The notes under the pieces: generated by a model
What the model saw: only the letters and a program-made list of their open reading frames with translations
Database searches by the model: none
Told to the model about the DNA's origin: nothing
Part shown: positions 11,787 through 22,923 of the stretch, piece by piece
Layout of the letters: every line of letters starts with the position of its first letter
Numbering within the stretch: position 1 is the first letter of the stretch
Origin: an uncultured Gemmatimonadaceae bacterium
GTDB taxonomy: Bacteria > Gemmatimonadota > Gemmatimonadetes > Longimicrobiales > Gaopeijiaceae
NCBI GenBank assembly: GCA_964605505.1
Contig: CAZSDD010000001.1
Location: 32,840 to 96,839, forward strand
DNA length: 64,000 nt
Direction of reading: 5' to 3'
Position numbers and translations under genes: made by a program

Positions 11787-14498
11787 ATGTCAGAAGGCGC
11801 CGCACAGGGATCGAAGAGGGGACGGGATCGGAACGTCAAGGAGGTACCGCCGGAAAAACGGATTCACTACTTCGGGCGGTTGGGCTCCAGGCGGACCCGG
11901 TTCTCCAAGGAGCGACTGGGAGGGAAAGGGGCCAGCCTGGCCTACATGCGATCCCTTGGCCTGCCCGTGCCTCCCGGCTTCACCATCACCACCGAGGTCT
12001 GCGCCGAATACTACGACCGGGGTGGCAAGCTCCCCCCCGGGCTCATGGAGCAGGTCCGGGAGAACCTGTCCAAGCTGGAAGAGGAGATGGAAAAGGGTTT
12101 CGGCTCTTCGGAAGACCCTCTTCTGGTCTCTGTTCGAAGCGGCGCCGCCGCCTCCATGCCCGGGATGATGGACACGGTCCTGAACCTGGGCCTGAATGAC
12201 GAGACGGTGGAGGCCATGGGCCGCAAGATGGGAACCGAGCGGGCAGCGTTCGACGCCTACCGGCGGCTCATCAACATGTTCGGCGACGTGGTCAAGAGTG
12301 TGGGTCACGAATACTTCGAGAACGCCTTCGAAGAGATCAAGAAGGCCTATGGCGCCAGGGAAGACATCGAGGTGCCCCTGGAGGGCCTGAAGGAGCTGGT
12401 TGAGAAATACAAGACCCTTTACCGGAAGCACACCGGGGAACCCTTTCCCCAGGATCCATTCAAGCAGCTGGAGATGGCCATCGACGCCGTCTTCCGGAGT
12501 TGGAATACGCCCAGGGCCGTACGGTACCGGGAGATCAATCACATCCATGGCTTTTTGGGCACCGCCGTGAACATCCAGGCCATGGTTTTCGGAAATCTGG
12601 GGGACGATTCAGGTACCGGGGTGGCGTTCACCCGGAATCCCTCCACGGGAGAGGATGCCATCTTCGGGGAGTTCCTGGTGAACGCGCAGGGCGAGGACGT
12701 GGTTGCGGGAATCCGGACCCCCAGGCCTGTGAAGGAGCTGAGGGAATGGAACCGGAAGGTCTACGACGAGCTCATGGAGATGAAGTGGGTTCTGGAGGAG
12801 CACTTCAAGGACATGCAGGACCTGGAGTTCACCATCGAGAAGGGTGACCTCTACATGCTCCAGACCCGGAGAGGGCAGCGGACAGGGGCGGCGGCGGTCC
12901 AGATCGCCGTGGATATGGCCCAGGGCGGCATCATCACCCGGGAGGAGGCCCTGCTCCGGATTCCGCCGGAGGCCATGACCCAGCTTCTCCTGCCCAGCTT
13001 CTCCGCCAGGGACAAGGAGGGGGCTGTGATTCTGGCCCGGGGCCTGCCGGCTTCTCCGGGGGCCGCCCGAGGCAAGCTGGCCTTTACGGCGGAGGACACC
13101 GTCAGGAGAGCGGCAGCGGGGGAGAAGGTGATCCTGGTGCGCAGAGAGACGTCTCCCGAGGACGTGGACGGGATGCACCACGCCGAGGGCATTCTCACCT
13201 CCACCGGCGGAATGACCTCCCACGCGGCTGTGGTGGCCCGGGGGTGGGGAAAGTGTTGCGTGGCCGGGGCCGGCAGCCTTTCCATCTATGCTGATGAGGA
13301 GAAGGTGGTCATCGACGGCAAGAGCTACGGGCCCGATGACGTCTTCTCCCTGGACGGCTCCACCGGGGAGGTCATGGCGGGGGAGGTTCCCTTTTCCCGA
13401 CCGGAACTCTCCGGGAACTTCGCACTGGTCATGGAGTGGGCTGATGAATTCGGCACACTGGGGATCAGGGCCAACGCTGACACTCGGGAGGAAGCCCGAC
13501 GGGCCCGGGACTTCGGGGCCACGGGCATCGGCCTGACCCGGACGGAGCACATGTTCTTCGGAGAAGGCCGCATCGAGGTGGTCCAGGAGATGATCCTCTC
13601 CGACAATTCCGATGCCCGGGAAAAAGCGCTGAAAAGGCTCCTGCCCTTCCAGCGGGAGGACTTCGTGGAAATTCTCTCAGCCATGAAGGGATTCCCCGTC
13701 ACCATCCGTTTGCTCGATCCTCCTCTCCACGAGTTCCTTCCCCGGGACAAGAAGAACCAGCAGGAATTGGCGGAGAAGTTGGATCTGCCCGTCAGATGGA
13801 TCCAGGATCGGGTCCAGGACCTGGGTGAGTCCAACCCCATGCTGGGCCACCGGGGGTGCCGCCTGGCCATTACGTATCCGGAGATTCTCGTGATGCAGGT
13901 GACGGCCATCGTGGAGGCCGCCGTTGAATGCCGCCGGAACAACATCCGGGCCCTTCCGGAGATCATGATCCCCCTGGTGGGCAGCAGGAGGGAGCTCTCC
14001 CATCTTCGGGATCGGGTGGAGGACACCATCAAGGCCGTCATGGACCACCAGGGATACACCGGGAACCTGGAGATTCCCGTGGGGACCATGATCGAGGTTC
14101 CCAGGGCGGCGCTGACGGCCGGGGAGATCGCCGAGGAGGCGGATTTCTTCTCCTTCGGAACAAACGACCTGACCCAGTTGACCTTCGGGTTCAGCCGGGA
14201 CGACGCAGGCACTTTTCTCCCGGATTACCTCTCCAAGGGTATCCTTTCGGACGATCCTTTCTACTCCCTGGACCAGGATGGTGTGGGGCGGCTGGTGGCG
14301 TTGGCTACCCGGGAAGGCCGGGCGGCCAACGATTCCCTGAAGGTGGGGATCTGCGGCGAACACGGGGGGGAACCCAAGTCCATCGACTTCTGTCACCGGA
14401 TCAAGCTGGACTACGTGAGCTGCTCGTCCTTCAGAGTGCCTGTGGCTCGCCTGGCGGCGGCCCAGGCGGCCCTGAGGGAGCAGGGGGTGGAGGAGTAG
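11787..14498 (+). CDS. ppdK: pyruvate, phosphate dikinase
   Basis: LGGKGASLAYM nucleotide-binding N-terminus, the phospho-His region GGMTSHAAVVARGWGK, and a PEP-utiliser C-terminus (GICGEHGGEP). The ATG at 11787 has AGGAGGA 7 nt upstream. The N-terminus has a basic extension of about 25 aa relative to typical PPDKs. Confidence 0.93.
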   Translation: MSEGAAQGSKRGRDRNVKEVPPEKRIHYFGRLGSRRTRFSKERLGGKGASLAYMRSLGLPVPPGFTITTEVCAEYYDRGGKLPPGLMEQVRENLSKLEEEMEKGFGSSEDPLLVSVRSGAAASMPGMMDTVLNLGLNDETVEAMGRKMGTERAAFDAYRRLINMFGDVVKSVGHEYFENAFEEIKKAYGAREDIEVPLEGLKELVEKYKTLYRKHTGEPFPQDPFKQLEMAIDAVFRSWNTPRAVRYREINHIHGFLGTAVNIQAMVFGNLGDDSGTGVAFTRNPSTGEDAIFGEFLVNAQGEDVVAGIRTPRPVKELREWNRKVYDELMEMKWVLEEHFKDMQDLEFTIEKGDLYMLQTRRGQRTGAAAVQIAVDMAQGGIITREEALLRIPPEAMTQLLLPSFSARDKEGAVILARGLPASPGAARGKLAFTAEDTVRRAAAGEKVILVRRETSPEDVDGMHHAEGILTSTGGMTSHAAVVARGWGKCCVAGAGSLSIYADEEKVVIDGKSYGPDDVFSLDGSTGEVMAGEVPFSRPELSGNFALVMEWADEFGTLGIRANADTREEARRARDFGATGIGLTRTEHMFFGEGRIEVVQEMILSDNSDAREKALKRLLPFQREDFVEILSAMKGFPVTIRLLDPPLHEFLPRDKKNQQELAEKLDLPVRWIQDRVQDLGESNPMLGHRGCRLAITYPEILVMQVTAIVEAAVECRRNNIRALPEIMIPLVGSRRELSHLRDRVEDTIKAVMDHQGYTGNLEIPVGTMIEVPRAALTAGEIAEEADFFSFGTNDLTQLTFGFSRDDAGTFLPDYLSKGILSDDPFYSLDQDGVGRLVALATREGRAANDSLKVGICGEHGGEPKSIDFCHRIKLDYVSCSSFRVPVARLAAAQAALREQGVEE

Positions 14499-14524
14499 TA
14501 GGAGTATAGTAGGAGTAGTGGAGC

Positions 14525-15796
14525 TCAGCTTCCGTAGAAGAGCTGACCGGCTCGCAGGCATGCGGCCAGCTCCCTGAACAACTCCTCCATGGCCCCCCTG
14601 GGCACCGGGGCCCCCGCGCCTCCGGTGCCCTTTCCGTTCAGCCCCAGCGCCCTGAGAATCTGGTCGGCCAGGGTTCCCCTTCGGAGGATGTGCCGGGCTT
14701 CCCGGGCCTGATCCGGGTCCTGGAGGTAGGATTCCCCGTCGGCCCGCTCCAGCAGGTGCCACCAGAGCTCCCGGGCCCGGGCCCCCCTCCCCGGGAATCC
14801 CATGACTTCCAGATACTCCCGGTCCCGGATGACGGCGGCCTCCCCATGGCGGATGCACTCCTGGAAGGCAGCCACCAGTGGCGGGGAGGCCATGGCTTTT
14901 TGCCGGGCCACCGGAGAGATGACCTGGTCCACCAGGAGCCTGAGGGCCCCCACCGTTAGCCCAACCAGGGCCAGGTCCGCCCCGGGACACTCCTGCACGT
15001 CCACCACCCGGATCTCGATGCTCCCCCGGCCAAAGCGGGCGATGGCCCCCCTTGAGTTCAGGAATTCCTCTTGCAGGATCCCTTCCGGGTCCAGGGGTGC
15101 GATGTCCAGGTACATCCTTCCCAGGATCTCCCGTTCGTAGTCCCCCCGGGTGAAGATGGGTTCGGGAATGATCTCCCCGGCCACCGAGGGGATTCGTCGG
15201 GAATTGTGCCGGTAGACCTCCATCCTCGAATCCAGGAAACCCGTGGTCCGCCCCTCAACCAGGGGGGAACTGGCGGCAACTCCCGGGAGGATGGGGAGGA
15301 TGAGGCGGATGGCGGCGTGGAGGCGGCCGAATTCCCCATCGTCTGCAAAGGGAAGATTGATGTGGGTGCTCTGCAGATTGGACCAGCCATGTCCCTGGCA
15401 CCCGAAGATCCGGTCGTAGGCGTGGTAGACGGGGCTGAATTCGTGGGGCCAGAGGACCGTCTCCCGGTGGGGGTTCATCCAGGGGTGCATGGCCGTGGGG
15501 AGAAGAATTCCCCCCATGTCCGAGAGGATGCTGCTCACCTTTCCCACGTGGGATTGGAACGCGTTCTGGAGCCCGGTCAGGAACGGCGCCGGCCCGTTGG
15601 TCTTCAGCTCCACCACGTGAAGGACCAGCTCGTTGGACCAGGCCAGGGAGCCCACCTCCACCTCCGGCACGATCGTTCCGGCCTGGGCCGCCAGGATCCG
15701 GTCCACCACAGGAAGGACATCCAGGGATCCGGCATCCACCACCATATACTCCAGCTCTACGCCGAAGCCCTGGAAGAGCCCCAGCCTTCCGCTCAT
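14525..15796 (-). CDS. carboxylate-amine ligase, GCS2/YbdK family (glutamate-cysteine ligase family 2)
   Basis: By eye the protein aligns along its length with E. coli YbdK: FGVELEYMVVD, THINLPF, ILPGVAASSPLVEGRTTGFLDSRMEVY, SIEIRVVDVQECP. The start ATG overlaps the upstream stop by 4 nt (ATGA). Confidence 0.85.
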   Translation of the reverse strand: MSGRLGLFQGFGVELEYMVVDAGSLDVLPVVDRILAAQAGTIVPEVEVGSLAWSNELVLHVVELKTNGPAPFLTGLQNAFQSHVGKVSSILSDMGGILLPTAMHPWMNPHRETVLWPHEFSPVYHAYDRIFGCQGHGWSNLQSTHINLPFADDGEFGRLHAAIRLILPILPGVAASSPLVEGRTTGFLDSRMEVYRHNSRRIPSVAGEIIPEPIFTRGDYEREILGRMYLDIAPLDPEGILQEEFLNSRGAIARFGRGSIEIRVVDVQECPGADLALVGLTVGALRLLVDQVISPVARQKAMASPPLVAAFQECIRHGEAAVIRDREYLEVMGFPGRGARARELWWHLLERADGESYLQDPDQAREARHILRRGTLADQILRALGLNGKGTGGAGAPVPRGAMEELFRELAACLRAGQLFYGS

Positions 15797-17262
15797 TTGC
15801 CGTTCCTCACGTGTCGCGCCTCCAGCCGCCGGAGGAAGGTGGCCATGACCCTCCTGTAGATCTCCTTCCCTTCTACCCTGTCTTCGTACCCGGCGTCCAC
15901 ATTGGGGTTGTCGTTGACCTCCACCACGTGGATCCTCCCGTCCCGCTCCTTGAGGTCCACCCCGTAGAGTCCGCGGCCGATGGGCTGGGTGGCCCGGATG
16001 GCGGTCTCTTTCACCTCGGGGGGGACCTCGCCGAGAGGGACGGCCTCCACCCCGCCATAGCGGGTGTCGGTTCCCCCGTCTCCCCGGATGATCTGCCAGT
16101 GGCCCCGGGCCATGTGATACCGGGCGGCAAAGAGAGGCTCCCCCCCGAGGATCCCCACTCGCCAGTCGAATTGGGTGGGGAAGAACTCCTGGGCGATGAG
16201 GAGGTCCGATCCTTCCAGGAATTCCCTGGTCCTGGCCCGAAAGCTCTCCATGTCGTCTACCCTGACCACTCCCTGGGAGAAGGAGGAGTCCGGGAGCTTG
16301 AGAATCATGGGGAATCCCAGGGCGGCTGCCGCCTGGTCCAGGTTGTCCTTGTGGAGGATCACCGTGGTGGGGGCCGGTATCTTGTGCCGACTGAAGAGCT
16401 CGGCGAGGAAGACCTTGTTGGTGCAGAGCAGGATGGATTCCGGGTCGTCCATCACCACCAATCCCTCGGCGGCAGCGGTTCTGGAGAAGCGGAAGGTGTA
16501 GTGGTTTACCGAAGTGGTGGCCCGGATGAAGAGGGCATCGAATTCCAGGAGGCGACCCAGATCGTCCTTTCCGATTCGCTCCGTCCGGATTCCGATTTCC
16601 TCCGCCGCCGTTTCAAAGCGGCTCAGGGCGCGGTCGTCGGAGGGAGCATGGGTCTCTGCGGGGTCTGTGAGGATGGCCAGGTCGTAGCGGAAGACATGGG
16701 GCCTGGCCCGGGCTCGAGCCCGGCCGGCGAAGAACCGCTGGGTCTGTTCGATGACGAAGGGCCGGTGGTTGTCGGGAATCTCCCTGGCGCCGATGGCCCG
16801 GAGGGAACGGAGCTCCCAGCGTCCGCTCCGCCGGACGAACTGGGCACGGAGGAGGGGCGCCGGAAAGAGACCGAAGAGTTGGTGGCTGAGCTTCCGGTAT
16901 TTCTTGGCCAGGTTCTCTCCGAAGTAGATGCTCAGGGAGAAGGTGTCCGTGGTGAGGCTGGCGAGATTCCGCTGAGTGAGCATCTCCAGGTCCTCGGAGA
17001 TGATTCGGACCACCGATTGGTGCTTCAGATCCTGTATGGTGGCCACGTCGGGAAGGGGGCGGTGGCCCCGGGCCTCGGCCAGAAGCGACACGTAATATCC
17101 CAGGCTCTGGTAGCGGTAGGACCGGCAGACGTTGAAGACCCTCACTCCCCGCTGCCCACTCCACATGGGGTCCGTCAGGTACGTCCTGGCAAGGACAACC
17201 CGGGCGCCCGGGACGTCCAGGGGCCAGTTCTCGGGCCTTTCCACAACCAGAATCCTGTCCAT
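15793..17262 (-). CDS. RimK-type ATP-grasp ligase with a ~200-aa N-terminal extension (RLAN-like)
   Basis: The C-terminal half is ATP-grasp-like (CTNKVFLAELFSRHKIP, FPMILKLPDSSFSQGVVRV, LIAQEFFPTQFDWRVGILGG, GVDLKERDGRIHVVEVNDNP). The N-terminal part (VFNVCRSYRYQSLGYYVSLLAEARGH) resembles the RimK-like ATP-grasp N-terminal domain. GGAGGA lies 7 nt upstream of the ATG. Confidence 0.85.
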   Translation of the reverse strand: MDRILVVERPENWPLDVPGARVVLARTYLTDPMWSGQRGVRVFNVCRSYRYQSLGYYVSLLAEARGHRPLPDVATIQDLKHQSVVRIISEDLEMLTQRNLASLTTDTFSLSIYFGENLAKKYRKLSHQLFGLFPAPLLRAQFVRRSGRWELRSLRAIGAREIPDNHRPFVIEQTQRFFAGRARARARPHVFRYDLAILTDPAETHAPSDDRALSRFETAAEEIGIRTERIGKDDLGRLLEFDALFIRATTSVNHYTFRFSRTAAAEGLVVMDDPESILLCTNKVFLAELFSRHKIPAPTTVILHKDNLDQAAAALGFPMILKLPDSSFSQGVVRVDDMESFRARTREFLEGSDLLIAQEFFPTQFDWRVGILGGEPLFAARYHMARGHWQIIRGDGGTDTRYGGVEAVPLGEVPPEVKETAIRATQPIGRGLYGVDLKERDGRIHVVEVNDNPNVDAGYEDRVEGKEIYRRVMATFLRRLEARHVRNGK

Positions 17263-17350
17263 GATCAGTCCTCCGGACCCGCCATCACAGGAATTGTCTT
17301 CGCGAACCGAGGAATCGTCTCCGCCACCCGGGTTCGGTCGATGTCCACGC

Positions 17351-18103
17351 TCATTCCTTCGGCTCCAGGATCAGGAGGTTGGCATCATTGGTCAGGACCC
17401 CCAGGAGGATGGCTGTGATGAGCCGCTCCATCCGGACCGGGTAGAAGGTGGAGCTTACCCAGGGCGTGCCCCCCAGGGGATCGGCCACCAGGACCTGATC
17501 CGATTCAGGCTCATGGCCTGCCAGGACCACGAAATGGCCCTGGGGGTCCCCCTTTATGTCGTCGTCCCGGACGCCCACCTCTCGGGGTGCCTGGTAGAGG
17601 TAGGTGGCGCTGAGGCCGGTGAGGATGGGGAGTCCCCGGTTCAGATATCCGCGAATGAGGCTGCCGGAGAGGTCGTCCATCCGGACTTCGCCTCCCAGGG
17701 CCAGGAACCGCTCGTAGGCCTCGGCGGCGGTTCTCCGCCGCTTCCCCTCCATGGTCAGGATGGACTGTCTGAGCCGTTCCCTGAACACCTTCCGAGAAAG
17801 GGAGAACCAGGTGGGGTCGAAGACCCGGAGGTTGTAGGAATGGAGAAGAGCCCGATACCCCCGCTCCAGGGCATGGCAGCCCAGGAGGACAGCCAGGGTA
17901 CCGCCTCCCTCCAGGGACCGGACCTCATGAATGAGAGCGTTCAACTCCATGTCGTCTCCGAAGTGACGGTAAACGGCGTGGAGGCAGGTGGGACCGCAGG
18001 TGAAGAGATCCCCCTGGCGGCGCATGTCCAGGGTCGGGAAGACAGCCGGGAAGGATGCCCGGATGCCTCCCTCCTCCGGGTAGGGGGCGGAACGCTTGGG
18101 CAT
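17351..18103 (-). CDS. papain-fold cysteine peptidase, C39-like, free-standing
   Basis: A C39-type triad is visible: Cys in LFTCGPTCLHAV, His in QGHFVVLAGH, Asp in VLVADPLGG. The start is uncertain: ATG 18103 is preferred (GGAGAG just upstream), with alternatives TTG 18181 and ATG 18025. Confidence 0.72.
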   Translation of the reverse strand: MPKRSAPYPEEGGIRASFPAVFPTLDMRRQGDLFTCGPTCLHAVYRHFGDDMELNALIHEVRSLEGGGTLAVLLGCHALERGYRALLHSYNLRVFDPTWFSLSRKVFRERLRQSILTMEGKRRRTAAEAYERFLALGGEVRMDDLSGSLIRGYLNRGLPILTGLSATYLYQAPREVGVRDDDIKGDPQGHFVVLAGHEPESDQVLVADPLGGTPWVSSTFYPVRMERLITAILLGVLTNDANLLILEPKE

Positions 18104-18385
18104 GGCTCTCCGGGGAATCAGCCCTTCGGAACAGGCACTGGGAGGGCAGCCTTTCCCGGGGCGGGATGAATGACCTATCAAGGGGCCCTTTCGGGGGCCG
18201 ACTCGAAAATAATCCAGGAAGAGGGTGGAGCACAGGGAGATGCTTCCTCAGCCAAAGGGGCTTCCGGGAGCCCGGAAGGTTTCCCCGGGGGGTGCGACGG
18301 CGGAGTCTCCGCCCCAGATTGTGGTGGCGCCTCCCCGGCTTCGGAGCCGGGGAGGAAGGCTACTGGAGAAACACCCCCATCGGAG

Positions 18386-19840
18386 ATGACCCTCATGCGC
18401 TTGCCGCCGGCCGCCCTCTCTCCATTCAATTCGTCCCTTCCGGGCCCGGGTAGGGGTCTGGCCCTGGCTTCCGTCCTCCTCCTCGTTCTTCTGGCTACAG
18501 CCGGAGGGCAGGGAAGGCTCGGAGCCCAGGAACCCGTCATCGTTCCCCGGGATGCGGCCCCCCGCTTCCACCCGCTCCCACCCCTGAGGGAGCAGGCCAG
18601 GATCCAGCAGGAGTGGGCAGCCATGCGGGTCACCCGGGTCATTCCCATGCTCATGCGGGAGCACGGGGTGGACATGTGGATCCTCTCCATGCGGGAGTAC
18701 GGGGAGGATCCGGTGTTCTGGGGCATCAAGGCCCCCACCACCTTCGCCGCCCGCCGGCGGTCCATCTACGTCTTCCATGACCCGGGGCAGGGGCGGGAGA
18801 TGGAACGCCTGGCGCTGGGAGGGGGAAGCCAGGGGGGGATCTTCACGGCCTTCACCTCATCCCGTCCGGCAGACCCCACGGGGCAGCCGGAGCTGGTGGG
18901 GGACGAGCAGTGGAGCCTTCTCCGGGAGCTGGTGGAGGATCGGGATCCGAGGGTTGTCGCCGTGAACATCGACGAGGACTGGGCTTTTGCCGATGGGTTG
19001 GGAGCCGGGGAGTGGGAAGCCCTCCAGAGGGCCCTGGGGCCCGAGTACCTGGCCCGGGTCCGGCGGGTGCCCCGGCTGGCGGTGGAATTCATCGCCCACC
19101 GGCTCCCGGAGATGATGCCCATCTACAGGGAGCGGGAGGAGACGGTCCATGCCATCGTTTCCCACGCCTTCTCCAACGCCGTCATCACCCCCGGCGAGAC
19201 CACCACGGAAGATGTCCAGTGGTGGATCCGGGAGAAGATCCAGGAGCTGGGGATGACCACCTGGTTCCATCCCTCGGTGGACGTGCAGCGGGCCGGTGAC
19301 ATCCCGGAGGAAGGGCCGGTGGTCATCCGGCCCGGGGACGTTCTCTGGACAGACCTGGGGACGGTGGCCATGAACCTCCACACCGACACCCAGCACCTGG
19401 GCTACGTTCTGAAGGCCGGAGAGACGGGGGTGCCCCCGGGGCTTCGCCGGTGCATGGCCGCTTCCAATCGGATGCAGGACGTCCTGCTGGAGGAGATGGA
19501 GGTGGGGCGGACGGGGAACGAGATCCTGGCAGCGGCTCTGGCCCGGTTGGCGGAGGAGGGGATCGACGGCACCATCTACACCCATCCCATCGGGGACAAC
19601 GGCCACGGCTCCGGACCCCTCATCGGTCGATGGGACGCCCAGCAGGGTGTGCCGGTTCGGGGGGACATCCCCCTCCGGGCCTCCACGTGGCACTCCATCG
19701 AGCTCCAGGCCCGGGTCCCCATCCCCGAGTGGGGGGGGGAGGTGGCCAGCTGTCGGCAGGAGGAGGAGGCCTATGTGGACCAGGAGGGGGATCGGCACTG
19801 GGTCTACAAGCGGCAGACAGACTTCCATCTGGTCTGGTAG
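18386..19840 (+). CDS. secreted M24-family metallopeptidase (Xaa-Pro peptidase/creatinase fold)
   Basis: Signal-like N-terminus (LALASVLLLVLLATAGGQG). A creatinase-like N-domain is followed by a pita-bread C-domain (PGDVLWTDLG ... YTHPIGDNGHGSGPLIG ... WHSIELQ). The start is ATG 18386 or ATG 18395. Confidence 0.7.
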   Translation: MTLMRLPPAALSPFNSSLPGPGRGLALASVLLLVLLATAGGQGRLGAQEPVIVPRDAAPRFHPLPPLREQARIQQEWAAMRVTRVIPMLMREHGVDMWILSMREYGEDPVFWGIKAPTTFAARRRSIYVFHDPGQGREMERLALGGGSQGGIFTAFTSSRPADPTGQPELVGDEQWSLLRELVEDRDPRVVAVNIDEDWAFADGLGAGEWEALQRALGPEYLARVRRVPRLAVEFIAHRLPEMMPIYREREETVHAIVSHAFSNAVITPGETTTEDVQWWIREKIQELGMTTWFHPSVDVQRAGDIPEEGPVVIRPGDVLWTDLGTVAMNLHTDTQHLGYVLKAGETGVPPGLRRCMAASNRMQDVLLEEMEVGRTGNEILAAALARLAEEGIDGTIYTHPIGDNGHGSGPLIGRWDAQQGVPVRGDIPLRASTWHSIELQARVPIPEWGGEVASCRQEEEAYVDQEGDRHWVYKRQTDFHLVW

Positions 19841-19886
19841 GCAAGAATCTTCCGGTAGGCACGAATTTTCGAAGAGGGAGAGAACC

Positions 19887-22418
19887 ATGAGAAGTGGGGC
19901 TTTCACCGCCGGCCGACGCCGGTATCGGAGCGCGAGGAGCTTCTTCGCAGGTTCCCCAGGAACGCCATGGGGGGGCCTTACCCTCATCCTCCTCCTCTTC
20001 TCCGGACTCCTTCCGTCGGCGGCGGTTTCCGGGCCCCTGGAAGCCCAGGAGCGCCTTTCCCTTCCCGGCCTGGACCATCCGGTGGAGATCCTGGTGGACC
20101 GCTGGGGCATCTCCCATATCTATGCCGAGACGGAGCACGATCTCTTTTTCGCCCAGGGGTGGAACGCTGCCCGGGACCGGCTCTTCCAACTGGAGATCTG
20201 GAGGCGACAGGCCACGGGAACGGTGGCGGAGATCCTGGGACCCCGGGAGCTGGCACGGGACGTGGGGGCCCGGCTCTTCCGATTTCGGGGTGACCTGGAG
20301 CAGGAGCTCCGGCACTACCATCCCCGGGGGGTGGAGATCATCCAGGCCTTCGTGGACGGCATCAACGCCTATGTGGCGGCGGCCCTGGAAGATCCGGACC
20401 TCCTTTCGGTGGAGTTCAGGATGCTGGGGATCCAGCCAGGGTACTGGACGCCGGAGGTGGTCATCTCCAGACATCAGGGTCTCCTCTCCAACGTCCGGTC
20501 CGAGCTTGGGTACGGGAGGGCCGTGGCGGTGGCCGGTCCGGAAGCGGTGAAGGATGTGGCGGCATTTCAGCCCCGGGACCCGGAACTGGCCCTGGACCCG
20601 GCCCTGGACAAGGATCACCTCCTGGAGCACGACGTTCTGGCTCTCTACTCCGCCTTTCGGGGTTCCATCCGATTCCAGCCGGAGGATGTGCTTCCCGAAT
20701 TCCGGGAAGAAGCCGGGACCGAGGTCGGGGAGCTTCCGAGAGGGTCTCCGGATTCGCCGGGGTGGGTCGACTCGGGGCGGGGGCCCGCGGTTTCGTTTCG
20801 TGACATCGGGAGCAACAACTGGATTGTTTCGGGACGGCGATCCGCCAGCGGGTTCCCCATCATGGCCAACGATCCCCACAGGGCCCAGGCCGCCCCGTCC
20901 CTCCGGTACTGGGTTCACCTGGTAGGGCCCGGGTGGAACGTCATCGGCGGTGGGGAGCCGGTCCTTCCCGGAGTGTCCATCGGCCACAACGAGCACGGGG
21001 CCTGGGGCCTCACGGTTTTCGCAACCGACACCGAGGATCTCTACGTCTACGAGTTGAGTTCCCGGGATGCGGACCTCTATCGATACAGAGGCAGCTGGGA
21101 GCGGATGACGGTGATCTCCGACACGATCCCCGTCCGGGGCCGGGACCCGGAGGTGGTGGAACATCGCTATACCCGCCATGGCCCGGTGGTCTACCGGGAC
21201 GAGGAGGCCGGCATCGCCTACGCCGTCCGGGCGGCCTGGATGGAGGTGGGGGGAGCCCCCTACCTGGCTTCCCTTCGAATGGATCAGGCCACGAGCTGGG
21301 AGGAATTCCGGGATGCCTGTACCTATTCCAATATCCCCGGGGAGAACATGATCTGGGGGGACCGTACCGGGACCACGGGGTGGCAGGCCGTGGGGATCGC
21401 GCCCATCCGCCGGAACTGGAGCGGCCTGGTGCCGGTGCCGGGAGACGGCCGTTATGAGTGGGATGGCTACCTGCCCATCCAGGCCAAGCCCCATCTGGTG
21501 AATCCCCCGGAAGGGTACTTTGCCACGGCCAACAACTACCTCGTTCCACCGGACTATCCCTTTCCCGATGCCGTGGGCTTCGAGTGGTCCGATCCCTACA
21601 GGTGGCTCCGGGCGGTGGAGGTCCTGGCCGGAGGCCGCCGCTTCACCCTGCAGGACATGATGGCACTCCAGACCGACGAGCTCTCCATTCCGGCCCGGAC
21701 CCTGGTGCCCCTCCTGGCGGAGCTTTCGGCGGGGAGCCCGGCCGTGGAGTCGGCCAGGCTGCGTCTGGTGGGCTGGGATCATGTTCTGGACCGGGGGTCC
21801 GTGGCCGCCGGTATCTACGTCGCCTGGGAGGGCCATCTCAGAAGCCGGGTTCGGAGCCTGATGATGCCGGAGGCCCTCCGACCTCACCTGGGCTCCGTGT
21901 CCATGAGACAGATGCTGGAATGGATCCTCCTGCCCGACGGGAATTTCGGGGACGATCCGGTGGCGGGACGGGACGCGTTCCTCCTTTCGGCCCTGGATGC
22001 GGCGGTGGAGGAGCTCTCGGAACGATTCGGCCGGGACCAGGAAGCCTGGGTCTACGGCCAGGAGGCCTACAAGCACATCCGCCTCCGGCATCCCCTGAGC
22101 CGGGCCGTGAGTGCCGAGTGGCGGGATCGGCTGGAGGTGGGGCCGGCCCCGCGGGGAGGGAACTCCTATACGTTGAACCAGACCGGAGGGGGTGACAACC
22201 AGACCTCCGGAGCCTCCTTCCGCATCATCGTGGACACGGAGGACTGGGATCGCACGGTAGGAATGAACAATCCGGGCCAGGGAGGCCATCCGGACCACCC
22301 CCATTATGAGGACCTCTTCCGGCTCTGGGCCCGGGACGGGTTCCACCCCGTCTTCTACACCCGGGAAAAGGTGGAGTCGGTAACGGGGGAGCGGATTCGC
22401 CTGGAGCCAAAGAGGTAG
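19887..22418 (+). CDS. penicillin acylase family Ntn-hydrolase (peptidase S45; AHL/penicillin/PvdQ-type acylase)
   Basis: Signal peptide, then VEILVDRWGISHIYAETEHDLFFAQGWNAARDRLFQLE. The self-processing site is GSNNWIVSGRRSASGFPIMANDPH. The start was moved to ATG 19887; the upstream part of the 923-aa ORF overlaps the M24 gene. Confidence 0.88.
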   Translation: MRSGAFTAGRRRYRSARSFFAGSPGTPWGGLTLILLLFSGLLPSAAVSGPLEAQERLSLPGLDHPVEILVDRWGISHIYAETEHDLFFAQGWNAARDRLFQLEIWRRQATGTVAEILGPRELARDVGARLFRFRGDLEQELRHYHPRGVEIIQAFVDGINAYVAAALEDPDLLSVEFRMLGIQPGYWTPEVVISRHQGLLSNVRSELGYGRAVAVAGPEAVKDVAAFQPRDPELALDPALDKDHLLEHDVLALYSAFRGSIRFQPEDVLPEFREEAGTEVGELPRGSPDSPGWVDSGRGPAVSFRDIGSNNWIVSGRRSASGFPIMANDPHRAQAAPSLRYWVHLVGPGWNVIGGGEPVLPGVSIGHNEHGAWGLTVFATDTEDLYVYELSSRDADLYRYRGSWERMTVISDTIPVRGRDPEVVEHRYTRHGPVVYRDEEAGIAYAVRAAWMEVGGAPYLASLRMDQATSWEEFRDACTYSNIPGENMIWGDRTGTTGWQAVGIAPIRRNWSGLVPVPGDGRYEWDGYLPIQAKPHLVNPPEGYFATANNYLVPPDYPFPDAVGFEWSDPYRWLRAVEVLAGGRRFTLQDMMALQTDELSIPARTLVPLLAELSAGSPAVESARLRLVGWDHVLDRGSVAAGIYVAWEGHLRSRVRSLMMPEALRPHLGSVSMRQMLEWILLPDGNFGDDPVAGRDAFLLSALDAAVEELSERFGRDQEAWVYGQEAYKHIRLRHPLSRAVSAEWRDRLEVGPAPRGGNSYTLNQTGGGDNQTSGASFRIIVDTEDWDRTVGMNNPGQGGHPDHPHYEDLFRLWARDGFHPVFYTREKVESVTGERIRLEPKR

Positions 22419-22455
22419 AACCGATCGGACCGAAGATCACACGGGAGACCAGGGC

Positions 22456-22923
22456 ATGGCGAAGCGTTACTGGCTCATGAAGAGCGAAGAAGACGTCTAT
22501 TCCATCCGGGACCTGGAGAGGGAGGGCACGACCCACTGGGAGGGGGTGCGCAACTATGAGGCCCGGAACATCATGCGGGACCAGATGAAGGAGGGTGACG
22601 GGGTCCTCTTCTACCACAGCAATGCCAATCCTCCCGGCGTGGCCGGGCTGGCCAGGGTGGCTCGGAGCGCCTATCCGGACCACTTCGCCTTCCATGAACA
22701 GAGCCGGTACCACGACCCGAAGTCAGACCCGGAGAACCCCCGGTGGTATATGGTGGATGTGGAGTTCGTGGAGGCGTTTCCCCAGGTGGTGAGCCTGGCG
22801 GAGATCAAAGAGACCCCGGAACTGGGAGAGATGACCCTGGTGAAGCGGGCCCGCCTTTCCGTCCAACCTGTGGAAAAGAAGGAGTTCGAGCTCATCATGA
22901 AGATGGGCCGGAAGGGTAGATGA
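22456..22923 (+). CDS. EVE (PUA-like, THYN1/DUF55) domain protein
   Basis: MAKRYWLMKSEEDVYSIRDLEREGTTHWEGVRNYEARNIMRDQMKEGDGVLFYHSN ... VAGLARV ... is the canonical EVE-domain pattern. Confidence 0.85.
   Translation: MAKRYWLMKSEEDVYSIRDLEREGTTHWEGVRNYEARNIMRDQMKEGDGVLFYHSNANPPGVAGLARVARSAYPDHFAFHEQSRYHDPKSDPENPRWYMVDVEFVEAFPQVVSLAEIKETPELGEMTLVKRARLSVQPVEKKEFELIMKMGRKGR

What the first reader, a model, noticed from the sequence alone, without database searches (positions are those of the whole stretch)
14525..18103. Peptidase / ATP-grasp / GCS2 three-gene amidoligase operon with unknown product
Three co-directional minus-strand genes. First is a free-standing C39-like papain-fold peptidase (Cys in FTCGPTCL, His in GHFVVLAG, Asp in LVADPLGG), not fused to an ABC exporter as classic C39 domains are. 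Second is a RimK-type ATP-grasp ligase with a ~200-aa N-terminal extension. Its stop overlaps by 4 nt (ATGA) the start of the third gene, a GCS2/YbdK-type carboxylate-amine ligase. Two mechanistically different ATP-dependent amide-bond-forming enzymes, translationally coupled and preceded by a peptide-cleaving enzyme, fit a peptide or protein-tag synthesis-and-trimming system. Comparable cases are RimK poly-Glu tailing of ribosomal protein S6, and PafA/Dop of pupylation, which are GCS-like ligases. From memory, comparative-genomic surveys of amidoligases (Iyer, Aravind and co-workers, 2009) flagged RLAN-ATP-grasp plus GCS2 neighbourhoods as uncharacterised peptide-synthesis systems. I know of no determined product or target. 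No precursor gene of 60 aa or more lies nearby.
Basis: partly seen in the sequence, partly recalled or inferred. Interest (0 to 1): 0.78.

Follow-up and report, generated by a model that had tools for sequence, protein, structure and literature searches.

The report
Conserved peptidase–two-ligase operon, product unknown
Three adjacent genes for a cysteine peptidase-like enzyme and two different ATP-driven amide-bond-forming enzymes form an intact copy of an operon found across at least ten bacterial phyla, whose product has never been determined; this copy has lost the usual fourth gene.

Summary
Window 14525-18103 (minus strand) encodes three genes in order. The first is a free-standing C39-like cysteine peptidase with an invariant Gln-Cys-His-Asp set. 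The second is an RLAN + RimK-type ATP-grasp ligase. The third is a GCS2 carboxylate-amine ligase whose ATG overlaps the ATP-grasp stop (ATGA).

The same gene order recurs in almost all of 83 other loci from at least ten phyla. At least 588 species genomes matched, and all three proteins are about 50% identical across phyla. Roughly 60% of loci add a fourth gene, an FGase-family N-formylglutamate amidohydrolase. A 72%-identical relative with identical flanking genes has it. The window and its 87%-identical relative do not, so it was recently lost here, yet the trio remains under purifying selection (dN/dS 0.08-0.32).

A sister system replaces GCS2 with a GNAT, which is fused either to the C39-like domain or to the RLAN-ATP-grasp. 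I found no conserved precursor ORF, exporter, rpsF, carrier protein, RNA motif or defence-family match.

No experimental paper or curated NCBIfam equivalog exists, so the product is still unknown. My best guess is a small non-ribosomal glutamate-containing peptide that is built and turned over. Protein C-terminal tagging is the main rival. This is an ordinary member of a computationally known, biochemically orphan system.

The parts
17351..18103 (-). Free-standing cytoplasmic C39-like papain-fold cysteine enzyme (250 aa), first gene of the operon. Candidate catalytic residues are Gln30, Cys36, His190 and Asp208. A helical insert of about 70 aa (residues ~95-165) lies between the Cys and His lobes.
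   Evidence: Pfam Peptidase_C39_2 1.5e-7 and Peptidase_C39 3e-5. Q30/C36/H190/D208 are invariant in 22 cross-phylum homologues. The AF2 model has pLDDT 82. Its best PDB folds are 3erv (C39-like), Alr0975 (primitive phytochelatin synthase) and the PCAT1 C39 domain, with TM scores of only 0.43-0.59. At least 8000 homologous 90% clusters exist.
17263..17350 (-). 88-nt spacer between the peptidase and ATP-grasp genes. It is not conserved in the closest relatives and shows no recognisable RNA motif.
   Evidence: Sequence read. The spacers of L085 and L086 are unrelated in sequence. No Rfam match at E<=1 over 14300-18600.
15793..17262 (-). RLAN + RimK-type ATP-grasp ligase (489 aa). The RLAN domain spans about residues 1-180, followed by an Arg-rich disordered linker (180-191) and the ATP-grasp module (~195-489).
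   Evidence: Pfam RLAN 3.1e-49 and RimK 1.1e-7. Residues I take to be the ATP/Mg-binding set (assigned by analogy with other ATP-grasp enzymes; my own knowledge), K322, Q358, E359, R368, D436, E448 and N450, are invariant in 26 homologues. The AF2 model has pLDDT 83. Its best PDB folds are ArgX, LysX and RimK (target TM ~0.78), covering the ATP-grasp part only. RLAN has no sequence relative in the PDB. A 100% identical protein is annotated 'RimK family protein', MAG Longimicrobiales.
14525..15796 (-). GCS2-family carboxylate-amine ligase (423 aa). Its ATG overlaps the ATP-grasp stop codon by 4 nt (ATGA at 15796-15793), which suggests translational coupling.
   Evidence: Pfam GCS2 1.1e-24 over 281 of 291 profile positions. 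It scores below every NCBIfam cut-off: YbdK 44.1 against 176.4, and the GshA and EgtA models lower still. Invariant E14, E16, E56, H60, E63, H145, N147, R249, E261 and R263 across 23 orthologues. The overlap is read, and the same overlap occurs in 42 of 66 related loci.
14499..14524 (.). 26-nt gap between the GCS2 stop and the stop of the convergent pyruvate phosphate dikinase gene. In the 72%-identical relative L086, a 246-aa FGase (N-formylglutamate amidohydrolase family) gene sits here. It has been lost in the window.
   Evidence: L086 gene order is EVE, penicillin amidase, M24, then C39-like, RLAN-grasp, GCS2, FGase, then PPDK, malic enzyme. L085 and the window have the same order without FGase. 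FGase Pfam match 3.2e-23. No FGase is found by tblastn anywhere in the 64-kb window.

Best explanation
**Shown.** This is an intact, selectively maintained copy of a widespread cytoplasmic operon of three catalytically competent enzymes: a C39-like Cys enzyme, an RLAN-RimK-type ATP-grasp ligase and a GCS2 ligase. In most genomes an FGase-family amidohydrolase follows as a fourth gene.

**Inferred.** The system most likely builds and turns over a small ribosome-independent, glutamate-containing peptide by a 'cap, then extend' logic.
1. GCS2 makes the first amide, probably a gamma-glutamyl-type link onto the amino group of an amino acid X. This blocks that amino group.
2. The translationally coupled ATP-grasp phosphorylates the free alpha-carboxylate of this intermediate and adds a further amino acid, most likely L-glutamate, as RimK-clade enzymes do. 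The product would be a glutathione-like cap-X-Glu peptide.
3. The C39-like enzyme acts on this product through a Cys-acyl intermediate. It could be a hydrolase or a transpeptidase/transacylase, as in phytochelatin synthase, CtaG or BtrH.
4. FGase, where present, hydrolyses the N-acyl-glutamate bond to recycle the product. It has been lost in this lineage.

The identity of X and of the final product is unknown.
For: - **Synteny.** The gene order peptidase, ATP-grasp, GCS2 is conserved in nearly all of 83 loci. These come from Planctomycetota, Bacteroidota, Verrucomicrobiota, Myxococcota, Desulfobacterota, Nitrospirota, Acidobacteriota, Spirochaetota, Gammaproteobacteria (including Legionella) and Gemmatimonadota.
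- **Coupling.** Start/stop overlap of the two ligase genes occurs in 42 of 66 loci.
- **Fourth gene.** FGase lies directly downstream in at least 36 of 59 loci with room. Its only characterised activity, hydrolysis of N-formyl-L-glutamate (established knowledge), is on a small N-acyl-glutamate.
- **Extra peptidase.** An M42 aminopeptidase follows FGase in Desulfatitalea.
- **Sister system.** A GNAT replaces GCS2, fused either to the C39-like domain (Azospirillum, next to an RLAN-ATP-grasp 41% identical to the window's) or to the RLAN-ATP-grasp itself. An N-capping enzyme swapped for another N-acylating enzyme fits cap-X-Y chemistry, as in GSH, NAAG and NAGG synthesis (established knowledge).
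- **Family precedent.** Characterised GCS2 members act on free amino acids (established knowledge).
- **Fold.** Among the closest folds to the peptidase model is the glutathione acyl-enzyme of the primitive phytochelatin synthase Alr0975.
- **Biochemical precedent.** A C39-like protein works as a transacylase together with an ATP-grasp ligase in closthioamide synthesis (PMC7183216).
- **No target nearby.** No conserved small ORF, carrier protein or exporter lies near the operon.
- **Competence.** Catalytic residues are invariant in all three proteins, and dN/dS is 0.08-0.32.
Against: - No product, substrate or phenotype is known. Every chemical step is inference from family precedents.
- The ATP-grasp module's best structural matches (ArgX, LysX, RimK) all modify protein C-termini.
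- C39 enzymes normally cut peptides or proteins.
- The 170-aa RLAN domain has no known fold relative and could be a protein-recognition module.
- The GNAT of the sister system scores best against RimI, a ribosomal-protein acetyltransferase (90.5 bits against a cut-off of 86.4 for one member).
- Fold similarity of the peptidase to phytochelatin synthase is weak (TM 0.43-0.56) and no better than to C39-like proteins.
- No Pfam Phytochelatin match was found.
- About 40% of loci, including this window, lack FGase, so it is not essential to the system.
Confidence: 0.4

Rival explanations
1. Protein (or ribosomal-protein) tagging and de-tagging. The RLAN domain recruits a protein encoded elsewhere in the genome. 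The ATP-grasp adds glutamate(s) to its C-terminus, as RimK does on S6 or LysX/ArgX on LysW. GCS2 then ligates an amine onto a terminal Glu side chain, as PafA does with Pup. The C39-like enzyme and FGase process or reverse the modifications.
For: - The best structural neighbours of the ATP-grasp module are ArgX, LysX and RimK, all protein C-terminus modifiers.
- The closest sequence relatives of the peptidase in the PDB are double-glycine leader peptidases.
- An extra, highly conserved 170-aa RLAN domain with many invariant residues could be a recognition module.
- The GNAT in the sister system is most similar to RimI.
- A DUF155/RMND1 gene lies directly upstream in 16 of 83 loci from at least 3 phyla. 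Its eukaryotic homologues are linked to mitochondrial translation (own knowledge).
- Cross-phylum identity of about 50% in all three proteins would suit a conserved macromolecular target.
Against: - No conserved small ORF or candidate target lies next to the operon in 83 loci.
- No rpsF or rpsR in the window or in any locus.
- Scores against the S6-glutamate ligase, LysX and rimK_fam models are far below cut-off.
- No Pup-ligase family match for the GCS2 protein.
- FGase and GCS2 have only small-molecule precedents (established knowledge).
Confidence: 0.3
2. A cyanophycin-like branched polymer. The ATP-grasp iteratively extends a poly-alpha-glutamate backbone, as RimK does in vitro, with RLAN holding the growing chain. 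GCS2 decorates side-chain carboxylates with an amine. The C39-like enzyme and FGase depolymerise the polymer. This would be a nitrogen or carbon store, or an osmotic buffer.
For: - The architecture resembles cyanophycin synthetase, which has an N-terminal anchoring domain, an ATP-grasp domain and a second ligase (own knowledge).
- RimK makes poly-alpha-Glu (PMC10375531, listed).
- One RLAN-ATP-grasp relative shows a weak match to the cyanophycin synthetase model in the ATP-grasp region (3e-7).
- Two hydrolases accompany two ligases.
Against: - Cyanophycin synthetase structures are not among the top 50 fold matches of the full-length model.
- RLAN shows no detectable sequence relation to any solved structure.
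- There is no direct evidence of iterative activity.
Confidence: 0.1
3. A RiPP-type pathway. The C39-like peptidase removes a double-glycine leader from a ribosomal precursor, which the two ligases modify by lactam, lactone or glutamylation chemistry.
For: C39 domains are classic leader peptidases. ATP-grasp ligases do make graspetides (PMC8939145, listed).
Against: - No conserved precursor ORF of 20-100 aa within 1.5 kb of the operon in 83 loci.
- No ABC exporter or other transporter is conserved.
- The ATP-grasp belongs to the RimK/LysX clade, not the graspetide clade.
- About 50% identity of all enzymes across ten phyla is unlike fast-evolving RiPP clusters.
Confidence: 0.05

Closest known systems
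RLAN-ATP-grasp / COOH-NH2 ligase (GCS2) / papain-like peptidase / FGase neighbourhood, predicted computationally (Iyer, Abhiman, Burroughs & Aravind, Mol Biosyst 2009). The paper was not readable here. Basis: my own knowledge, the existence of Pfam PF14401, and citations in PMC10318531.
   Same: Same domain families in the same gene order. This window is a member of that neighbourhood type.
   Different: The window lacks the FGase gene found in about 60% of loci and in its 72%-identical relative. The class has no determined product, so the word 'known' applies to the gene arrangement only.
Glutathione pathway with phytochelatin synthase or glutathionylspermidine synthetase/amidase
   Same: A GCL-superfamily ligase is followed by an ATP-grasp ligase, as in GshA then GshB. 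A papain-fold Cys enzyme then acts on the product, as phytochelatin synthase or the CHAP amidase of Gsp synthetase does. The peptidase model matches the Alr0975 glutathione acyl-enzyme at E 3e-5.
   Different: No protein reaches any GshA, GshB or EgtA cut-off. There is no Pfam Phytochelatin hit. The ATP-grasp is RimK/LysX-like with an extra RLAN domain. Thiol chemistry is not indicated by anything tested.
RimK/RimB (S6 poly-glutamylation) and LysX/ArgX-LysW
   Same: The ATP-grasp module is closest in sequence and fold to these enzymes. As with RimK-RimB, a ligase is paired with a peptidase (PMC11957051).
   Different: It scores below the rimK_fam, S6-ligase and LysX cut-offs and has an N-terminal RLAN domain. 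The partner peptidase is papain-fold rather than retropepsin-like. A second ligase is present. No rpsF or LysW-like gene lies nearby.
Sister system: GNAT + C39-like (DUF3335) + RLAN-ATP-grasp. Examples are Azospirillum brasilense plasmid p1 and the GNAT-RLAN-ATP-grasp fusions.
   Same: The RLAN-ATP-grasp is 41% identical over its full length. The partner is a C39-like domain with the same Q/C...H...D layout and helical insert. The genes are tightly coupled.
   Different: A GNAT replaces GCS2 and is fused to one of the other two components. It is not the NAGGN synthetase Ngg, because TIGR03103 is matched only weakly and only in the GNAT part. It is equally uncharacterised.
CtaD/CtaG (closthioamide) and BtrJ/BtrH (butirosin)
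   Same: An ATP-grasp ligase cooperates with a C39/BtrH-like papain-fold protein that uses its Cys-His-Asp triad as a transacylase (PMC7183216). CtaG structures appear among the weaker fold matches.
   Different: Those pathways are thiotemplated on carrier proteins. No PCP/ACP gene is conserved near this operon, and the ATP-grasp clades differ.
Pupylation (PafA/Dop)
   Same: It uses a GS/GCL-fold ligase that activates a Glu gamma-carboxylate, paired with a hydrolase that reverses or prepares the modification (PMC3511204, listed).
   Different: No Pup-ligase family match. No Pup-like ORF or proteasome genes nearby. The phyletic range is different.

Membership tests
Pfam RLAN (PF14401) + RimK-like ATP-grasp architecture | RLAN domain N-terminal to a RimK-type ATP-grasp domain, both above gathering score | tested here: met
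   RLAN 166.9 bits (cut-off 25), residues 25-172. RimK 32.2 bits (cut-off 21), residues 282-456.
RimK proper (S6--L-glutamate ligase / rimK_fam) | Score above the curated NCBIfam cut-off for TIGR00768 or NF007764 | tested here: not met
   70.7 bits against 143.4, and 25.5 against 331. No rpsF within 64 kb or in 84 related loci.
LysX/ArgX amino-group carrier system | LysX equivalog score and an adjacent LysW-type small acidic carrier gene | tested here: not met
   78.7 bits against 275.6. No conserved small ORF near the operon. The ATP-grasp module has a similar fold.
GCS2 superfamily (PF04107) | Full-length match above gathering score, with conserved metal/ATP-binding acidic and His residues | tested here: met
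   87.8 bits (cut-off 21) over profile positions 2-282 of 291. E14, E16, E56, H60, E63, H145, R249, E261 and R263 are invariant.
YbdK / GshA / EgtA (GCS2 members with assigned substrates) | Score above the curated equivalog or subfamily cut-off | tested here: not met
   YbdK 44.1 against 176.4; gshA_cyano 22.6 against 249; EgtA 15.5 against 371. PDB relatives appear only at E>=0.005.
Peptidase C39-like (clan CA; PF13529 / PF03412) | Family HMM match plus a conserved Gln (oxyanion hole), Cys, His, Asp/Asn layout | tested here: met
   C39_2 32.6 bits (cut-off 24). C39 24.3 bits (cut-off 22, though no single stretch passes). Q30/C36/H190/D208 are invariant. The papain fold is confirmed by the model.
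Classic C39 bacteriocin-processing peptidase | Fusion to, or adjacency with, an ABC exporter and a double-glycine leader precursor | tested here: not met
   The protein is a free-standing 250 aa. No transporter or precursor is conserved in 83 loci.
Four-gene peptidase / RLAN-grasp / GCS2 / FGase operon | Gene order peptidase, ATP-grasp, GCS2 on one strand with tight spacing | tested here: met
   The window has an 88-nt gap and then a 4-nt overlap. The same order is found in L001-L086.
Four-gene peptidase / RLAN-grasp / GCS2 / FGase operon | FGase (PF05013) gene directly after GCS2 | tested here: not met
   Absent from the whole 64-kb window. Present in at least 36 of 59 loci and in the syntenic relative L086. 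FGase is therefore accessory, and its absence does not exclude membership.
Phytochelatin synthase (C83, PF05023) | Family HMM match | tested here: not met
   No Pfam hit at E<=0.01. No sequence hit to Alr0975 with the family profile. Only weak fold similarity (TM 0.43-0.56).
NAGGN synthesis (Ngg/AsnO/M42 trio) | TIGR03103 N-acetylglutaminylglutamine synthetase equivalog | tested here: not met
   The window ATP-grasp has no TIGR03103 hit. GNAT-RLAN-ATP-grasp relatives match only in the GNAT part, at 29-34 bits against 569.
Known anti-phage defence systems | Match to a PADLOC model | tested here: not met
   No hit for any of the three proteins.
Enzymatic activities (ATP-dependent ligation; Cys-dependent hydrolysis or transfer) | Demonstrated catalysis and substrate | not testable with these tools
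   Only conservation of catalytic residues could be checked.

The most novel reading that the evidence does not exclude
The operon makes a chemically new, widespread cytoplasmic product that no one has detected. It could be a glutathione-like gamma-glutamyl peptide serving as a metabolite (redox, metal or osmotic role) in phyla whose small-peptide chemistry is largely unknown (Planctomycetota, Cytophagales, Gemmatimonadota, Myxococcota). Or it could be a new enzymatically built protein tag. In either case RLAN would be the substrate-selecting module shared with the GNAT-type sister system.
Probability: 0.45. Interest if true: 0.8.

Novelty: new member of a known kind. Interest (0 to 1): 0.5.

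Why it matters
The operon is present in at least 588 species genomes across ten or more phyla, with about 50% cross-phylum identity in every component. Yet it has no known product, no curated functional model and no experimental paper that I could find. Solving it would assign function to thousands of genes now annotated 'RimK family protein', 'glutamate-cysteine ligase family protein' and 'C39 family peptidase'. It would also reveal either a new small peptide metabolite or a new protein modification. The window itself adds two modest points. The FGase gene can be lost while the trio stays under purifying selection, so the three-gene core is the functional unit. Comparison with the GNAT-type sister system shows that the C39-like enzyme and the RLAN-ATP-grasp are the invariant pair.

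Tried and rejected
1. **NAGGN/Ngg link.** GNAT-RLAN-ATP-grasp fusions looked like the osmolyte enzyme Ngg. NCBIfam TIGR03103 matched only the GNAT part, at 29-34 bits against 569, so I rejected this.
2. **Conserved precursor or target ORF.** I clustered 2580 ORFs of 20-100 aa within 1.5 kb of the core in 83 loci. Only low-complexity or antisense-shadow families emerged.
3. **Other conserved neighbours.** Clustering of 3693 ORFs of at least 90 aa found nothing universal beyond the three genes and FGase. DUF155 was found in 16 loci. The S1/P1-nuclease-like, asparagine-synthase-like and DUF1080-like neighbours are lineage-local.
4. **M24 peptidase and penicillin amidase as system members.** They are conserved only within the Longimicrobiales relatives and absent elsewhere. 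I rejected them as parts of the system.
5. **RLAN fold identity.** A profile search of the PDB gave only noise (E>=0.47). The whole-protein fold search was dominated by the ATP-grasp module. The domain could not be searched alone.
6. **Riboswitch or RNA element in the spacers.** No Rfam hit, and the spacer is not conserved.
7. **Defence system.** No PADLOC hits.
8. **rpsF/rpsR adjacency.** None found.
9. **Literature.** Ten full-text searches found no experimental study. Iyer et al. 2009 is not held. The PA1345 search assumed a locus-tag identity that I did not verify, and it gave nothing useful.

Full report
**What is in the window**

The window is about 65% GC. On the minus strand at 14525-18103 there are three consecutive ORFs with high GC3 (0.79-0.84), typical of real genes in this sequence.
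- 17351-18103 (250 aa)
- 15793-17262 (489 aa)
- 14525-15796 (423 aa)

- First gene: Peptidase_C39_2 (1.5e-7) and Peptidase_C39 (3e-5).
- Second gene: RLAN (3.1e-49, residues 25-172) plus RimK-type ATP-grasp (1.1e-7).
- Third gene: GCS2 (1.1e-24, nearly full profile length).

The stop of the ATP-grasp gene and the start of the GCS2 gene overlap as ATGA. An 88-nt non-conserved spacer separates the peptidase and ATP-grasp genes. The ATP-grasp protein is 100% identical to a protein annotated 'RimK family protein' from a Longimicrobiales MAG of the phylum Gemmatimonadota.

Flanking genes:
- Convergent: pyruvate phosphate dikinase and a malic enzyme.
- Divergent: an M24-family peptidase, a penicillin amidase and an EVE-domain protein.

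**Are the enzymes real and active?**

- *Peptidase.* In a 22-sequence cross-phylum alignment, Gln30, Cys36, His190 and Asp208 are invariant, as are about 50 other positions.
- *ATP-grasp.* Residues that I assign as the ATP/Mg-binding set, by analogy with other ATP-grasp enzymes (own knowledge), are invariant in 26 homologues: K322, Q358/E359, R368, D436, E448 and N450. So is a large block of the RLAN domain, N44-C46-...-Y49-Y51-G55YYVSLLA-A64R-H67-P69-P71-D78.
- *GCS2.* The acidic and His/Arg positions E14, E16, E56, H60, E63, H145, N147, R249, E261 and R263 are invariant in 23 orthologues. I read these as the kind of metal- and nucleotide-binding residues expected in the GS/GCL fold (own knowledge).
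- *Selection.* Against two relatives of the same order, dN/dS is 0.08-0.32 for all three genes, although dS is near saturation.

**Synteny**

Neighbourhoods of distant peptidase homologues show the same three genes in the same order, often with overlapping stops and starts.

The 80 loci kept come from Planctomycetota, Bacteroidota (Cytophagales), Verrucomicrobiota, Myxococcota, Desulfobacterota, Nitrospirota, Acidobacteriota, Spirochaetota, Gammaproteobacteria and others.

tblastn with the window's proteins found peptidase, ATP-grasp and GCS2 in that order in nearly every locus long enough to hold them. Identity was about 45-57% for each protein. Independent ORF clustering gave 83, 79 and 72 loci for the three families. 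A 4-nt start/stop overlap of the ATP-grasp and GCS2 genes is possible in 42 of 66 loci. Legionella adelaidensis also carries the ATP-grasp, GCS2 and FGase genes in that order, with generic annotations.

**A fourth gene, lost here**

In at least 36 of 59 loci with enough downstream sequence, a gene of the FGase family (PF05013, N-formylglutamate amidohydrolase) follows GCS2, often overlapping it.

The 72%-identical relative L086 has exactly the window's flanking genes (EVE, penicillin amidase and M24 on one side; PPDK and malic enzyme on the other) and carries FGase between GCS2 and PPDK. The window and its 87%-identical relative L085 have only 26 and 63 nt there. No FGase is detectable anywhere in the 64 kb.

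FGase was therefore lost recently in this lineage, while the trio stayed under purifying selection. The M24 and penicillin-amidase neighbours are local synteny only, and they do not recur in other phyla.

**A sister system**

An exhaustive search with the RLAN domain found 811 representative clusters. Most have the same ~490-aa architecture. A subset of 636-663 aa carries an N-terminal GNAT domain.

In Azospirillum brasilense, a GNAT-DUF3335 fusion protein is followed, with stop/start overlap, by an RLAN-ATP-grasp 41% identical to the window's. DUF3335 is a C39-like papain domain with the same Q/C...H...D layout.

The invariant pair is therefore a C39-like enzyme plus an RLAN-ATP-grasp. The second acylating enzyme is either GCS2 or a GNAT. 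These GNAT forms are not the NAGGN synthetase Ngg.

**Structure**

The ATP-grasp model (pLDDT 83) matches ArgX, LysX and RimK best, with target TM about 0.78. The match covers only the C-terminal ~300 residues. RLAN has no sequence relative among solved structures.

The peptidase model (pLDDT 82) is a papain fold with a helical insert. Its nearest PDB entries are:
- a Bacillus C39-like protein, 3erv (E 1.6e-5);
- the glutathione acyl-enzyme of the primitive phytochelatin synthase Alr0975 (E 3e-5);
- the PCAT1 C39 domain and the pseudomurein isopeptidase PeiR, with the transacylase CtaG further down the list.

All of these have modest TM scores (0.43-0.59), so they confirm the fold but do not fix a function.

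**What is absent**

- No conserved small ORF within 1.5 kb of the core.
- No exporter, carrier protein or other universally conserved neighbour.
- No rpsF or rpsR.
- No Rfam motif.
- No PADLOC match.
- No NCBIfam model reached its cut-off for the ATP-grasp or GCS2 proteins, and none matched the peptidase or FGase at all.
- No experimental paper in ten full-text searches.
It is cited for related C39-like/GNAT fusions in a 2023 classification of papain-like enzymes.

**Mechanism**

The steps below are inference, not demonstration.

I rank a small-peptide 'cap then extend' pathway first, at about 0.4. GCS2 would make a gamma-glutamyl-type amide onto an amino acid. The coupled RimK-clade ATP-grasp would add a further residue, most likely Glu, to the free carboxylate. 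The Cys enzyme would hydrolyse or transfer the product through an acyl-enzyme. FGase would hydrolyse the N-acyl-Glu bond.

The main arguments for this ranking are:
- the GNAT-for-GCS2 swap;
- the small-molecule precedents of GCS2, FGase and M42;
- the absence of any target gene;
- documented cooperation of a C39-like transacylase with an ATP-grasp ligase (PMC7183216).

Protein tagging is the serious rival, at about 0.3. It rests on:
- the ArgX/LysX/RimK fold neighbours;
- the unexplained RLAN domain;
- the RimI-like GNAT of the sister system;
- the DUF155/RMND1 neighbour in 16 loci.

A cyanophycin-like polymer (about 0.1) and a RiPP pathway (about 0.05) are less likely.

**Verdict**

The finding is real and correctly interpreted.

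It is, however, one more member, and a reduced one, of an operon type that is very common and was recognised computationally years ago. A specialist would not be surprised to see it in a Gemmatimonadota genome. The interest lies in the class, which remains a widely conserved biochemical orphan and could be tested directly by co-expression and mass spectrometry.

Noticed in passing
window 14499-14524; compare L086 8552-9292: The FGase gene present in the 72%-identical syntenic relative is missing from the window and from L085, leaving only 26 nt between the convergent GCS2 and PPDK stop codons. This looks like a clean lineage-specific deletion of the operon's fourth gene.
   Followed up: yes
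window 18170-22923 (+): An M24-family peptidase (the long ORF is 556 aa, but relatives are called at 458-481 aa, so the true start is probably later), a penicillin amidase and an EVE-domain gene lie divergent to the operon. This block is conserved only in the Longimicrobiales relatives L085 and L086, not in other phyla. The long ORFs of the M24 and amidase genes overlap at 19647-19840, so their starts are uncertain.
   Followed up: partly
e.g. L057 9199-9993, L084 3816-4679, L006 12160-13002: A DUF155/RMND1-family protein (PF02582, 7.7e-32) with a C-terminal hydrophobic, probably membrane-spanning, tail is encoded directly upstream of the peptidase gene in 16 of 83 loci, from Bacteroidota, Planctomycetota, Myxococcota and Gammaproteobacteria. 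Eukaryotic homologues are linked to mitochondrial translation (own knowledge). The bacterial function is unknown.
   Followed up: partly
L087 2138-7591 (Azospirillum brasilense Sp7 plasmid p1): This locus carries a sister operon: a 914-aa protein with no Pfam match, then a GNAT-DUF3335 (C39-like) fusion, then an RLAN-ATP-grasp, each with overlapping or abutting stop and start. The 914-aa protein could be a substrate or a further enzyme.
   Followed up: partly
L088 5974-7563 (Pseudomonas aeruginosa record NZ_CP133752.1): A stand-alone RLAN-ATP-grasp homologue (529 aa, annotated 'RimK family alpha-L-glutamate ligase') has no adjacent peptidase or GCS2. It lies convergent to a class I/II aminotransferase and near ggt and a Glu/Asp ABC transporter. 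The RLAN-ATP-grasp can therefore occur outside the operon.
   Followed up: no
L004 543-4463: About 6-9 kb upstream of the operon in a Gemmatimonadota-like contig lies another amide-bond cluster: two D-Ala-D-Ala-ligase-like ATP-grasp genes, a GNAT and a lysine-2,3-aminomutase-type radical SAM gene. A TrkAH potassium uptake pair lies directly upstream of the peptidase gene, and glutamate dehydrogenase lies downstream.
   Followed up: no
L003 14239-15285 (Desulfatitalea alkaliphila): An M42-family aminopeptidase follows FGase as a fifth co-directional gene. Its best NCBIfam matches are lysyl and glutamyl aminopeptidases, all below cut-off. The only other place I met M42 in this work is the NAGGN osmolyte operon (PA3461).
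   Followed up: partly
window 16678-17262 (RLAN domain of the ATP-grasp): The RLAN domain contains an unusually rigid invariant block (N44, C46, S48, Y49, Y51, G55-A62, A64-H67, P69, P71, D78) that includes a Cys, a His and an Asp. This looks more like a binding or catalytic site than a passive scaffold, but no fold or sequence relative could be found.
   Followed up: partly
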